Origin: Catajapyx aquilonaris
Lineage: Eukaryota
Reading direction: 5' to 3'
DNA length: 48,074 nt
Assembly (NCBI GenBank): GCA_000934665.2
Contig: KZ538778.1
Location: 1-48,074, forward strand
Positions within the stretch are counted from its first letter, which is position 1. Each line of letters begins with the position of its first letter. Below are positions 26,301 through 29,300 of this stretch, one piece after another. A program made the translations under genes and the position numbers. A model generated the notes under the pieces. It worked only from the letters and a program-made list of their open reading frames with translations, had not been told where the DNA came from and made no database searches.

Positions 26301-29300
26301 CCTGATTTCAGCGGGTGCACAAAGGGGAAAAATGGTGTATATTTGTAATTTCTGACAAGTTTCTTCAATCCCCCCACCTCCCCCCCACCNNNNNNNNNNN
26401 NNNNNNNNNNNNNNNNNNNNNNNNNNNNNNTCCCCCCCCCCCCCCCCCCCCCCCCCGGTCCCCCCATACGTGCCCATTCTTAAAAACTCGAAAGCTACCT
26501 GATCTTGAACCCTGCCGGGATGAAGGCTGAGAAGGACGATCAAAAGGCTGCCAAAGTATGCCTTGAGTCGACTAGTCTGGACGCCGACCTGTACCGATTG
26601 GGTCACACCAAGGCATGTAGCAATAAGGCGTCTATTTTCACTTCTACGCGAACACAAGGACTGATTCGGTAGAAAAATATACTTGGTAGGAATGTGTGTG
26701 AGTTTGCCCCTCGCAAATGGAGCATTTTTACGCGCCCATTATGAATGAACCCCCCCTCCCCAACCCCCAGAACACCCTACTTAGAAGAGTAGTTGCAAAA
26801 CTATTAGTAAAACCATCCTGAAGCCCTGGAATGAGACAGTCTGGGCGCCCCTGCCACACGTTAGTTAGATTCTGTATCCAATTATAAATCGTGGTAGACA
26901 GAATCCCACAGAATTGAGGATGGAACTGCCTCAAGTTTTAGCATGACTCCCTCCCCCGCCCCCCCCCTATGTGGCCCCCCACCCCCCTTTATCCATGTGG
27001 CCCTATGTAGTGTTATACTGGTTAGTACCTAGTACATGACCCCCCCTTTTTGAAGGCCTTTTGTGGCGCAGGAATGAATTGGACATGATTTTTTCGATCC
27101 TTCCTGGCGCACGGGCCGACTATACTTGCCCCACCCATAGGCTATACCGTATAACGCACGCTTTTTCCACAGTAGAAACCATTACACCTTTACTAAAGGC
27201 TAGTTTCCTGTTTTTTCCCCTCTAAGATACAAGATCCTAGCCCCTTCCCAGGTAAAATCGGTTGACGATCCCAAGAAGTGTTGTCAGATAATTCTCGACA
27301 CTACGTCCCTGGATGCTGATCTGTACCGGTTGGGCCACACCAAGGCACGTGTTCCCGTTAGAGAGCTTGATGTACAGATGCGCGTCTTGTGCACAGTTGG
27401 GTCCTGGTACAGCTGAGACCAGTGTACCAGATGATTTACTTTACAGCTGTGTTCTGCGCATTTGTGTCACTCCTCAAGCATTGTTCTAAGACAAAGGCTT
27501 GAGGAACGTCCCCATCTTTTGAACGTGACTGTCCATGGTCTAGCTTGACCTTCCTAATCAAGACGCAGGAAGTGATTTTATTTCCACTTAAAAATGCCAG
27601 CATGGTCCCCATCTCCGCCCCACCCCCTCTCTTTCTATACGTACGGTTTGATGTTTGAATGTGAATCGTGGTATGTCACTGTGGTGAGTATTGGGAAAAG
27701 ATGCAGCACCTCCCATTTTGAAACGATTTGCATGTGTTTTGTCTCAGATATAACATTTTGGCTGCCGGCCTGACGAAAAATATCGATGACCCCAGAAAGG
27801 CTACTGGTATCCTTCTGGAATCCGTCAAATTGGAAGAATCCCTCTACCGAATGGGTCATACCAAGGCAAATTTTGATTCCGACTAAGTACTTTGCAGAGT
27901 AGAATAGTCCATAACTCCCAAGTAGATTGTTTTAGCTAGGTCTTAGTTCCTCGCGAACATTTCATATCGGTAGCATCACGGACGCCAACGAACTTCCCTT
28001 AGTTAAGTAGTGCTTCTCGTCACCCTAGTTACAAGGTGCTGTGTGCCAAAGACGTCAAACAGGACATGACTCCCGAGATGGCCACCAAAATCATCTTGGA
28101 TAAAGTCGGCATTGACACGGAGCTGTACAGGATGGGTCACACTAAGGTACCCTCACCACACGCTTAACCGTTAACTTCTCTCTCAACTTATTACACCTAC
28201 TCTTTCTGCAATGCCTAAAAGCAGACATGCTTGCATACACATTCTGCGGCAACACTACCTGTCATGCTCATTTTTAACAGCGCTTGGAAGCCCCACATCT
28301 TTCAATTGCTCTTTTCACACAATCATATCCTTCTACCTGCATAATTTCCTTTCTGAAGGCGTTCGAAAGCATTGATCTACCGAAATGAAGTGGTAATAAA
28401 TTCAGCTACTTTTTGACTACAAAATCCGACGACTGACGTAAGTATGCGTTGTGAAGGAAGCATGCATCGTCACTTTCTTTTTAAGCATGGCTGGCTTTGC
28501 AACATGTGATGCACGGTAGTACAGAGAGCCAAGCGATGGAATGAGTTCATACGAGGTGGCCAAAAGAAACCAAAGTTGAAGCACCCTCATGTGAACTCGA
28601 ACTGAAGCTAACCACGCCATTTCCTGACACTAATATTCAAAATTAGGTGTTCTTCCGAGCTGGTGTGCTCGGTCAGCTTGAGGAATTGCGAGATGACCGC
28701 CTGGGCAAGATCATCACCTGGCTGCAGTCCTATATTCGAGGCTACCTGTGCCGCAAGAACTACAAGAAACTGCAGGACCAGAGGTGCGTTCGGCTAATCT
28801 GATACCTTTAGCATGCTTATATTTATCACTCTCCATCACTTGCACAAATCTCGGGCTTTGGACCAAATGTTTACGCTCTGTTACGATGGTGATGGTTCAC
28901 CAACGACTCTGAACTCGTGACATCCTCAAAGGATGCGTTTCCTTCCTGTTCCTCTACAGGGTGGCCCTCCAGGTCGTACAGCGCAACCTGCGCAAGTACA
29001 TGCAGCTCAGGACATGGGCCTGGTACAAAATGTGGCAGAGGGTCAAGCCTATGCTCAACGTCACCAGGGTTGAGGATGAGATCAAGGTACAGTATCAGCA
29101 TTGTCTCAAATTTTGCAGTTTAGAACTACACTACTGGGGATAAAACACTGAATTACTCTCTGATTTGACTCATGGAGGAGCCATACTCAAAATTTGGTGA
29201 CAACTTTTGTTACACATTCTGGCAATCAGGATATTTCGGAATCATTCAACTTAGATGAATAAAATTTTTAAATGCCACGCGATATTCAAAACCTGCTTGT

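What the first reader, a model, noticed from the sequence alone, without database searches (positions are those of the whole stretch)
26665..28404. Docking-site/selector RNA pairings in the converter MXE cluster
Seen: the segment 28373-28404, downstream of the last converter exon, is complementary to an element after each upstream variant. After a, TTCGGTAGA (26665-26673) pairs with 28376-28384, and a nested second helix pairs 26686-26707 with 28221-28247. After b, TGATTTTATTTCCACTT (27573-27589) pairs with 28388-28404 (15/17). After c, CATTTCATATCGGTAGCATCA (27958-27978) pairs with 28373-28392 (one bulge, one mismatch, one G-U). The a/c and b/c targets overlap, so these pairings compete. Known: competing docking/selector pairing controls MXE choice in insect Dscam, 14-3-3 and Mhc. 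Inference: each pairing loops out the downstream variants, and d is the default.
Basis: partly seen in the sequence, partly recalled or inferred. Interest (0 to 1): 0.75.

Follow-up and report, generated by a model that had tools for sequence, protein, structure and literature searches.

The report
Myosin converter exon-choice RNA pairing
In an arthropod-type muscle myosin gene, a short intron element just after the last of four swappable "converter" exons can pair strongly with an element after the third exon and weakly with elements after the first two, which is probably another case of a known RNA-pairing device for picking one exon.

Summary
The locus is the converter cluster of a muscle myosin heavy chain gene. 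It has four 118-nt mutually exclusive exons: a 26495-26612, b 27227-27344, c 27748-27865 and d 28029-28146. Exons a-c have GC donors and d has a GT donor, the published arthropod pattern.

The pairing after exon c is stronger than described. It has 27 bp (27958-27986 with 28358-28392) at -37 kcal/mol. It brackets exon d, lies in the minimum-energy fold, and has mean pair probability 0.92-0.97 in three contexts. Shuffles reach it in 3 of 1000, 5 of 1000 and 2 of 126 trials. It ranks in the top 2-5% of same-geometry placements in this window.

The b pairing (15/17, -12.7 kcal/mol) and the a pairing (9 bp) are weak, with predicted pair probability about 0.001-0.003. Even so, a, b and c converge on one 32-nt window (28373-28404). 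By Watson-Crick counting this is the only such place in 48 kb. An energy-based test shows no excess. The "nested" a helix is not supported.

I found no RNA reads and no orthologous introns, so conservation and exon usage are untested.

Verdict: a probable new member of the known downstream docking-site/selector kind, with c dominant. Moderate interest.

The parts
25849..25966 (+). Constitutive exon upstream of the cluster. It ends ...AAGCATCG followed by a GTAAGC donor.
   Evidence: Read from the sequence. Its translation matches myosin heads in the PDB and cDNA-like contig L001.
26495..26612 (+). Converter exon a, 118 nt. The donor at 26613 is GC (GCATGT).
   Evidence: tblastn of L001 residues 727-765 gives 59% identity.
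26638..26673 (+). Candidate selector after exon a. CACTTC, then a 21-nt loop, then TTCGGTAGA (core 26665-26673).
   Evidence: RNAduplex gives -20.1 kcal/mol against 28375-28399. 21/500 shuffles reach it. Alignment scores are not significant. Pair probability is 0.002-0.003, rising to about 0.15 when the c selector is masked.
27227..27344 (+). Converter exon b, 118 nt. The donor at 27345 is GC (GCACGT).
27573..27589 (+). Candidate selector after exon b, 15/17 complementary to 28388-28404.
   Evidence: Energy is -12.7 kcal/mol. Shuffles reach it in 9/2000 (Watson-Crick count), 250/2000 (energy-like) and 287/500 (RNAduplex). Pair probability is 0.001.
27748..27865 (+). Converter exon c, 118 nt. 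The donor at 27866 is GC (GCAAAT). The exon also contains CTACCGAA at 27843-27850.
27958..27986 (+). Selector after exon c, the 5' arm of the 27-bp helix.
   Evidence: It is unique in the window at up to 3 mismatches.
28029..28146 (+). Converter exon d, 118 nt, the last variant. Its donor at 28147 is GT. It begins Y-K-V-L-C.
   Evidence: Lys2, Cys5 and the GT donor match the description of the last variant in PMC2257972.
28358..28404 (+). Docking element in the intron after exon d. 28358-28392 pairs with the c selector. 28376-28384 is the a target and 28388-28404 the b target.
28602..28623 (+). Local alternative partner of the dock's 3' half. It covers a CTAAC at 28608-28612, 24-45 nt upstream of the constitutive acceptor.
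   Evidence: With the c selector masked, these pairs have probability 0.80-0.89. Not tested against chance.
28647..28783 (+). Constitutive exon downstream of the cluster ([14 protein letters not shown]...).

Best explanation
The element at 28358-28404, in the intron after the last converter exon, is a downstream docking site of the kind reported for Drosophila Mhc and 14-3-3.

**Main partner (shown by computation).** Its main partner is the 29-nt element after exon c. The 27-bp helix encloses exon d with both its splice sites in a loop of about 370 nt.

**Effect on splicing (inferred).** This would hide d and bring the weak GC donor of exon c close to the acceptor of the next constitutive exon, favouring c.

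**Weaker partners (inferred).** Elements after b (AU-rich, 15/17) and after a (9 bp plus a short second helix) target the same 32-nt stretch. They would act the same way, looping out all downstream variants. They can only win if the c selector is kept unavailable, for example by tissue-specific proteins.

**Default and safeguard.** With the dock unpaired, exon d, the only variant with a GT donor, is used (inferred). All four exons are 118 nt, so double inclusion or complete skipping shifts the reading frame. That follows directly from the sequence.
For: **Locus identity.**
- The flanking exon matches myosin motor domains, with insect and tarantula chains on top.
- tblastn with a cDNA-like contig lays out the whole gene and its clusters.
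- GC donors on a-c and GT on d, plus Lys2/Cys5 in d, match PMC2257972 (passages).

**c helix.**
- It has 27 bp at -37.0 kcal/mol.
- All 27 pairs are in the MFE. Mean pair probability is 0.916 (781 nt), 0.972 (1037 nt) and 0.957 (2172 nt).
- It is the only long-range stem with probability above 0.9 in the 2172-nt fold.
- It is the best of 10 intron pairs, reached by 3/1000 shuffles.

**Convergence on one window.**
- The best Watson-Crick match of introns a, b and c anywhere in the 500-nt last intron falls at 28376-28384, 28388-28404 and 28377-28389.
- The summed score peaks at 28373. 0/1316 shuffles of the last intron and 2/1449 shuffles of the three introns reach it.
- The dock region is the top window in 12 of 12 score and length settings. 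Shuffles reach the observed value in 0/210 to 37/244 trials.
- It is the only place among 23,217 windows of the 48-kb window by Watson-Crick count, and one of 7 places by a GC-weighted count.
- Introns a and b alone also peak at the dock, ranking 1 of 469 windows, with 16/544 shuffles reaching the value.

**Literature.** Downstream docking sites in the Mhc exon 7, 9 and 11 clusters and 14-3-3 are listed in PMC6027157 Table 1 and PMC6071210 (passages). Stronger pairing is said to give more inclusion in PMC4691838 (passage).
Against: - **No comparative or expression data.** There are no orthologous introns and no RNA reads.
- **Energy-based test is negative.** The summed RNAduplex energy of a, b and c shows no excess (observed -66.1; 26/31 shuffles reach it).
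- **The excess depends on the score.** With G.U counted, the dock window ranks only 44th or 67th of 469 for a plus b. 240 of 23,217 windows in the 48 kb then match it.
- **The a match is ordinary.** 125 places in the window match intron a equally well.
- **Predicted occupancy of a and b is tiny.** Pair probabilities are 0.002 and 0.001.
- **Masking c does not hand the dock to a or b.** The dock then prefers a local partner (probability 0.80-0.89), while the a core reaches only about 0.15.
- **Overlap is partial.** The a and b targets do not overlap each other, and b overlaps c by 5 nt.
- **The c helix is not unique in strength.** Stems as strong occur in 7/135 same-geometry placements of this window.
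- **No replicate in another cluster.** The same hub scan on the three-variant cluster at 19337-21186 does not single out its downstream intron.
- **Post hoc choice of score.** I tried several scoring schemes, and the clearest results come from the one chosen afterwards.
Confidence: 0.45

Rival explanations
1. Only the 27-bp helix is functional. It acts as a loop-out silencer of exon d, which equally activates exon c. The a and b complementarities to the same stretch are chance, and choice among a, b and c is set by proteins and the weak GC donors.
For: - The c helix is the only pairing that passes every shuffle test and dominates every fold.
- a and b are non-significant by energy measures and have pair probabilities of 0.001-0.003.
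- 9-bp matches to intron a are common, at 125 places.
- Exon skipping by pairing of the flanking introns is an established mechanism (PMC11802352 passage).
Against: - The best Watson-Crick matches of introns a and b in the whole last intron both land on the dock.
- Their sum ranks 1 of 469 windows, with 16/544 shuffles reaching it.
- Matches to intron b (score >=11) and to intron c (score >=10) each occur at only 9 places in 48 kb, and they coincide only at the dock.
Confidence: 0.22
2. None of the pairings is functional. They are chance complementarities in about 2 kb of intron. Exon choice depends on trans-acting factors, non-consensus donors and other intronic elements.
For: - Helices of this strength arise in 2-5% of same-geometry placements in this window's own sequence.
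- 10 intron pairs were examined, so 3/1000 becomes about 0.03 after correction.
- The multi-selector excess vanishes under energy scoring.
- No conservation or expression evidence could be obtained.
- From recall only, no call: work on Drosophila Mhc exon 11 by Standiford and colleagues stressed non-consensus donors and conserved intronic elements.
Against: - The strong helix sits exactly where the published architecture puts it, with the selector after a variant and the dock after the last variant.
- Three independent introns converge on one 32-nt window that is unique in 48 kb by Watson-Crick count.
- The helix has pair probability above 0.9 in three fold contexts.
Confidence: 0.28
3. The dock is mainly a local regulator of the constitutive acceptor. 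Its 3' half pairs with 28602-28623, covering a CTAAC branch-point-like motif. The c selector acts as an anti-repressor that frees that region.
For: With the c selector masked, 28382-28404 pairs with 28602-28623 at probability 0.80-0.89. This partner lies 24-45 nt upstream of the acceptor at 28646.
Against: - The local helix was not tested against chance.
- The branch point is not mapped.
- Blocking the shared acceptor would hamper all four variants alike, so it does not explain choice.
- Other branch-point-like motifs lie closer to the acceptor.
Confidence: 0.05

Closest known systems
Docking site/selector pairings of the Drosophila Mhc exon 11 (converter) cluster (Yang et al. 2011). I saw this only as cited in PMC6027157 Table 1 (about 15 bp, spread about 2600 nt) and PMC6071210.
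   Same: - It is the same gene family and the same cluster (converter).
- The docking site lies in the intron downstream of the last variant.
- Complementary elements lie in the introns after the upstream variants.
- The spread here is 370-1740 nt.
   Different: - This is a different, unnamed arthropod-type genome with four variants rather than five.
- One pairing is much longer (27 bp) than the tabulated 15 bp or so, and the other two are weak.
- Nothing here is shown by conservation or mutation.
- The original paper is not held, so the sequences could not be compared.
14-3-3 (xi/zeta) exon 5 cluster, with a downstream docking element and intronic elements IE1, IE2 and IEa (as described in PMC4174434 and PMC6071210 passages)
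   Same: A small cluster with a downstream dock, pairing that loops out the downstream variants, and a last variant usable without pairing.
   Different: A different gene. There the pairings are conserved across insects and were tested by mutation. Here they are only predicted.
Dscam exon 6 docking site and selector sequences (Graveley 2005, as described in PMC3245913 and PMC6071210 passages)
   Same: One docking site, many competing selectors, and only one pairing at a time.
   Different: The Dscam exon 6 dock lies upstream of the cluster and its selectors lie upstream of each variant. Here the dock and the selectors lie downstream. An upstream candidate here (26138-26183 with 27645-27685) reached only 15/1000.
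Exon loop-out by pairing of the two flanking introns (reviewed in PMC11802352, passage)
   Same: The 27-bp helix has one arm in each intron flanking exon d and encloses the whole exon.
   Different: In this cluster the expected result is a swap to another variant rather than plain skipping, because skipping a 118-nt exon would shift the frame.
Conserved GC/GT donor rule of the arthropod Mhc1 converter cluster (Odronitz and Kollmar 2008, PMC2257972)
   Same: Exons a-c have GC donors and the last variant has GT. The last variant has Lys at position 2 and Cys at position 5.
   Different: That paper describes the donors only, not RNA pairings. Its stated Glu at position 20 is not at the ungapped position 20 here (Lys); I did not build the alignment needed to check this.

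Membership tests
Downstream docking-site/selector system of mutually exclusive exons (Mhc, 14-3-3 type) | Tandem array of homologous, same-length mutually exclusive exons | tested here: met
   There are four 118-nt exons encoding variants of the same 39 residues ending in (L/M)GHTK.
Downstream docking-site/selector system of mutually exclusive exons (Mhc, 14-3-3 type) | One docking element in the intron downstream of the last variant that is the common target of the variant introns | tested here: inconclusive
   The dock is the top window of the last intron in 12/12 alignment settings and unique in 48 kb by Watson-Crick count. There is no excess by summed RNAduplex energy (26/31 shuffles reach it).
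Downstream docking-site/selector system of mutually exclusive exons (Mhc, 14-3-3 type) | Selector after variant c complementary to the dock | tested here: met
   27 bp at -37.0 kcal/mol. Shuffles reach it in 3/1000, 5/1000 and 2/126 trials. Pair probability is 0.92-0.97.
Downstream docking-site/selector system of mutually exclusive exons (Mhc, 14-3-3 type) | Selectors after variants a and b complementary to the dock | tested here: inconclusive
   For a, shuffles reach it in 21/500, 889/2000 and 222/2000 trials. For b, in 287/500, 250/2000 and 9/2000. Pair probabilities are 0.002 and 0.001.
Downstream docking-site/selector system of mutually exclusive exons (Mhc, 14-3-3 type) | Targets overlap, so only one selector can pair at a time | tested here: inconclusive
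   The a target lies inside the c target. The b target overlaps c by 5 nt. The a and b targets do not overlap.
Downstream docking-site/selector system of mutually exclusive exons (Mhc, 14-3-3 type) | Pairings conserved or covarying in related species | not testable with these tools
   No orthologous genomic sequence was found. The metagenome scan gave cDNA-like or distant loci. Genome contigs and viral contigs gave only spurious hits. No genome is held for the window.
Downstream docking-site/selector system of mutually exclusive exons (Mhc, 14-3-3 type) | Disruptive and compensatory mutations change and restore exon choice | not testable with these tools
   This needs a bench experiment.
Arthropod Mhc1 converter cluster (Drosophila exon 11; cluster-10 of Kollmar and Hatje 2014) | Encodes the converter segment directly before the VFF(R/K)AG exon of a muscle myosin II | tested here: met
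   The flanking exon aligns to residues of about 680-730 of myosin heads. The variants align to residues 727-765 of cDNA-like L001.
Arthropod Mhc1 converter cluster (Drosophila exon 11; cluster-10 of Kollmar and Hatje 2014) | GC donor after every variant except the last, which has GT | tested here: met
   GC at 26613, 27345 and 27866; GT at 28147. The rule is stated in PMC2257972.
Arthropod Mhc1 converter cluster (Drosophila exon 11; cluster-10 of Kollmar and Hatje 2014) | Last variant has Lys at position 2 and Cys at position 5 | tested here: met
   Exon d translates Y-K-V-L-C-A-K....

The most novel reading that the evidence does not exclude
The dock is a three-state switch in a non-dipteran arthropod.
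- Bound to the very strong c selector, it hides exon d.
- Bound to the weak a or b selectors, when proteins mask c, it loops out more of the cluster.
- When free, it folds back on the branch-point-like CTAAC region of the shared acceptor.

Together with the conserved GC/GT donor rule, this would mean that RNA pairing at the converter cluster is ancestral to arthropod Mhc genes. It would also mean helix strength is set very unequally between variants, so that protein masking rather than pairing energy decides the muscle type.
Probability: 0.15. Interest if true: 0.55.

Novelty: new member of a known kind. Interest (0 to 1): 0.36.

Why it matters
The converter exons tune the speed and power of muscle myosin. 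How one of several is chosen is understood only in Drosophila, where competing RNA pairings were reported.

A clear docking helix in another arthropod-type Mhc gene would indicate that the device is old and goes with the conserved GC/GT donor pattern. That would need to be confirmed.

It also gives a simple, testable prediction. A 27-bp helix brackets the only GT-donor exon, so breaking it should shift use from c to d.

As it stands, this is a computational prediction in one sequence, for a mechanism already in the literature.

Tried and rejected
**Sequencing runs.**
- No RNA holder was listed. It returned one run, X1, of unknown kind.
- Laid on 25600-29100, X1 gave a single 338-letter contig on 28281-28618 with no differences and no joints.
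- It looks like DNA and may be the source sample. It says nothing on expression or exon use.

**Search for orthologous introns.**
- The metagenome scan gave 13 loci. L001-L007, L010 and L012 read as cDNA without introns. L008 and L009 are genomic but have the converter fused to the next exon.
- Genome contigs gave 3 Streptomyces hits on 16-17 residues. Viral contigs gave 1 hit at 39% identity.
- No genome is held for the window.

**Methods that did not work or did not discriminate.**
- Whole-intron RNAduplex behaves like a global alignment (timed out, 8).
- The first alignment scoring was in the linear regime.
- Windowed RNAduplex against the empirical background does not discriminate (46/135 placements reach the value).

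**Ideas tested and dropped.**
- The dock as a decayed fifth exon: no significant similarity of the last intron to exons a-c (165/1000, 796/1000 and 348/1000 shuffles reach the scores). The hit for d was my own 12-nt overlap.
- Known RNA families: nothing near gathering scores. The two matches have E 0.15 and 0.53.
- The same hub scan on the three-variant cluster at 19337-21186: its downstream intron is not singled out (best sum 20, matched by 125 of 23,107 windows).
- An upstream docking site of the Dscam exon 6 type: the best candidate, 26138-26183 with 27645-27685, reached 15/1000, which is not significant after 10 tests.

**Earlier findings of this scan.** Four look-ups found nothing relevant.

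**Papers.**
- Yang et al. 2011 is not held. The Drosophila dock and selector sequences could not be compared with these.
- A search for the Drosophila exon 11 donor and intronic-element papers found none in the library.
- I did not open the supplements of PMC2257972 and PMC3912159. They may hold converter alignments that would place this gene more exactly.
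Full report
**What the locus is**

The window carries a muscle myosin heavy chain gene on the + strand, from about 14112 to 36052. A cDNA-like metatranscriptome contig (L001, 1963-residue reading frame) aligns to it exon by exon. The exon just before the finding matches myosin motor domains in the PDB, with insect and tarantula muscle myosins on top.

The region of the finding holds four tandem exons of 118 nt each. 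They encode alternative versions of the 39 residues that end in (L/M)GHTK:
- a: 26495-26612
- b: 27227-27344
- c: 27748-27865
- d: 28029-28146

They lie between a constitutive exon ending at 25966 and one starting at 28647. This is the converter cluster, exon 11 in Drosophila.

The introns after a, b and c begin with GC, and the one after d begins with GT. Exon d begins Y-K-V-L-C. Odronitz and Kollmar (PMC2257972, passages read) describe exactly this for arthropod Mhc1 genes: GC after every variant except the last, and Lys2 and Cys5 in the last.

Because 118 is not a multiple of three, using two variants or none would shift the frame. This follows from the sequence.

The gene also has two-variant clusters at the P-loop and after loop 2. 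Kollmar and Hatje (PMC3912159, passages) report these from Daphnia and some other arthropods and lophotrochozoans. I did not try to name the organism.

**Check of the observation**

The pairing after exon c is longer than described. RNAduplex extends it to 27 base pairs, 27958-27986 with 28358-28392, at -37.0 kcal/mol. It has one A.A mismatch, one bulged C, a 7-nt bulge on the 3' arm and two G.U pairs. The two arms lie in the two introns that flank exon d, so the helix encloses the whole of exon d.

**Is the c helix more than chance?**

Tests against dinucleotide shuffles:
- In a search of the whole of intron c against the whole of intron d, 2/126 reach it.
- A local-alignment complementarity score gives 3/1000. 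It is the best of the 10 intron pairs of the cluster. The next best is 15/1000 and the rest are 135/1000 or worse.
- A repeat with slightly trimmed introns gave 5/1000.

Tests against the window's own sequence in the same geometry are less extreme:
- An alignment score at least as high occurs in 61/1182 overlapping placements.
- A long-range stem of at least 27 bp, with loops up to 8 nt allowed, occurs in 27/135 minimum-energy folds.
- A stem of -37 kcal/mol or better occurs in 7/135, or 2/102 where GC is at most 0.48.
- A windowed RNAduplex measure does not discriminate at all (46/135).

In folds of 781, 1037 and 2172 nt, all 27 pairs are in the minimum-energy structure. Their mean probabilities are 0.916, 0.972 and 0.957. 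No other long-range stem in the 2172-nt fold exceeds 0.69.

I take the helix as real, at roughly the 0.3-5% level depending on the null. Its position matches what the published architecture predicts.

**The a and b pairings**

The a core is a perfect 9-mer at -12.0 kcal/mol. With a second short helix across a 21-nt loop it reaches -20.1.
- 21/500 shuffles reach that energy.
- Alignment scores give 889/2000 and 222/2000.
- Matches of that quality to intron a exist at 125 places in the window.

The b pairing is 15 of 17, AU-rich, at -12.7 kcal/mol. It is ordinary by energy (287/500; 250/2000). It is unusual by Watson-Crick count (9/2000; 10/2000 with a dock defined as the c target plus or minus 15 nt). 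Only 9 places in 48 kb match intron b as well.

In the 2172-nt fold the a and b pairings have probabilities of 0.002 and 0.001. With the c selector masked, the dock's 3' half prefers a local partner at 28602-28623 (0.80-0.89). The a core reaches about 0.15 and b about 0.002.

The "nested" a helix, 26686-26707 with 28221-28247, has 0/18 pairs in the fold and probability 0.0000. The pair intron a by intron d as a whole is not significant (345/1000; 287/1000).

**Do the three introns share one target?**

Results here depend on the measure, and I report both.

By summed RNAduplex energy there is no excess. The best 30-nt window is at 28355 with -66.1, and 26/31 shuffles of the last intron do as well.

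By alignment counts there is an excess:
- The best Watson-Crick match of each of introns a, b and c anywhere in the 500-nt last intron falls at 28376-28384, 28388-28404 and 28377-28389.
It is reached by 0/1316 shuffles of the last intron and 2/1449 shuffles of the three introns.
- In 12 of 12 combinations of four scores and three window lengths, the top window lies in the dock region. Shuffles reach the observed value in 2/301, 0/210, 0/197, 21/266, 8/206, 1/178, 37/244, 11/194, 1/189, 3/284, 0/243 and 0/254 trials.
- I scanned all 23,217 windows of the 48-kb window as decoys. The dock is the only place that reaches its own sum by Watson-Crick count, one of 7 places by a GC-weighted count, and one of 240 windows when G.U is rewarded.
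- Leaving c out, introns a plus b still peak at the dock by Watson-Crick count (rank 1 of 469; 16/544 shuffles reach it). With G.U counted they do not (ranks 67 and 44; 218/442 and 173/532).

I tried several scores, and the clearest result comes from one of them, so these figures are somewhat optimistic.

**What could not be tested**

- No RNA run was listed for the locus. The single run found gave one intronic contig identical to the window.
- No orthologous genomic sequence was found in the metagenome, prokaryote-genome or viral collections, and no genome is held for the window. Conservation, covariation and exon usage therefore remain open.
- The cDNA-like contigs L001 and L002 carry a converter most like exon a. 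This shows only that a-like variants are expressed in relatives.

**How it most likely works**

The anatomy fits the downstream-docking model reported for Drosophila Mhc (exon 7, 9 and 11 clusters) and 14-3-3. I saw that model only through citing papers: PMC6027157 Table 1 and PMC6071210 and PMC6191721 passages. The original, Yang et al. 2011, is not held.

- Shown here by computation: a strong helix encloses exon d, and weak complementarities from the a and b introns fall on the same 32 nt.
- Inferred: pairing hides the enclosed variants and brings the GC donor of the exon just upstream of the paired selector near the acceptor at 28646. Without pairing, d, the only GT-donor exon, is used.
- The hierarchy is steep (-37, about -20, -12.7). 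On pairing strength alone, c should dominate over a and b, in line with the statement that stronger pairing gives more inclusion (PMC4691838 passage). Use of a or b would need the c selector to be masked.

My odds:
- A docking site with c dominant and at least one of a or b real: 0.45.
- Only the c helix functional: 0.22.
- All chance: 0.28.
- Mainly a local regulator of the shared acceptor: 0.05.

**Comparison and novelty**

The kind is known, and so is the gene and cluster in Drosophila. What is new is a candidate instance in another arthropod-type Mhc gene with one unusually long pairing. It is a new member of a known kind, unverified, and of moderate interest.

Noticed in passing
window 26613, 27345, 27866 and 28147: The introns after converter exons a, b and c start with GC, and the one after d starts with GT. 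All four donors are otherwise poor matches to the consensus. This is the published arthropod Mhc1 rule (PMC2257972).
   Followed up: yes
window 23054-23111 and 23853-23926: In the two-variant relay-type cluster (variants at 22262-22432 and 23123-23293), a complementary pair brackets the last variant. Its 5' arm lies just upstream of that variant's acceptor. It scores 43 at -40.4 kcal/mol, and 14/1000 shuffles reach it. This may be a second exon-bracketing helix in the same gene.
   Followed up: partly
window 26138-26183 and 27645-27685: The intron upstream of exon a is complementary to a stretch 63-103 nt upstream of exon c. It scores 41, and 15/1000 shuffles reach it, which is not significant after 10 tests. 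This could be an upstream dock and selector pair of the Dscam exon 6 type.
   Followed up: partly
window 28382-28404 and 28602-28623: When the c selector is masked, the dock's 3' half folds onto a stretch that includes CTAAC (28608-28612), 24-45 nt upstream of the constitutive acceptor. The pair probability is 0.80-0.89. Not tested against chance.
   Followed up: partly
window 14810-14953 and 15023-15166: These are two 144-nt alternative exons near the N-terminus, separated by an intron of only 69 nt. A long gapped complementarity, 14775-14844 with 15210-15268, spans both (score 48).
   Followed up: no
window 17327-17407 / 17620-17721; 19337-19417 / 20031-20120 / 21097-21186; 24780-24832 / 25119-25171: Further clusters of alternative exons are present: P-loop (2 variants), residues about 303-332 (3 variants) and after loop 2 (2 variants of 53 nt). 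This makes the gene richer in clusters than Drosophila Mhc and closer to the Daphnia-type layout described in PMC2257972 and PMC3912159.
   Followed up: partly
window 26340-26470: An assembly gap (N run 26390-26430) is flanked by long poly-C tracts in the intron upstream of exon a. That part of the intron cannot be assessed. More C-rich tracts lie in the intron after exon a (26745-26770, 26950-26990).
   Followed up: no
window 27843-27850: Exon c itself contains CTACCGAA (coding L-Y-R), the same 8-mer as the core of the dock. The a and c selectors could therefore also touch the end of exon c. TCGGTAG or its complement occurs 7 times in the window against 2.28 expected; 1/100 shuffles reach 7.
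   Followed up: partly
window 41373-41495 / 41659-41779 and 9483-9534 / 9780-9834: Two long, near-perfect inverted repeats lie outside the myosin gene: 71-nt arms at 94% complementarity, and about 52-nt arms. They look like small transposon-type elements.
   Followed up: no
L001 and L002 (metatranscriptome contigs): These are full-length myosin heavy chain cDNA-like contigs, 83-85% identical to the window in the exon after the cluster. They carry a converter most like exon a.
   Followed up: partly
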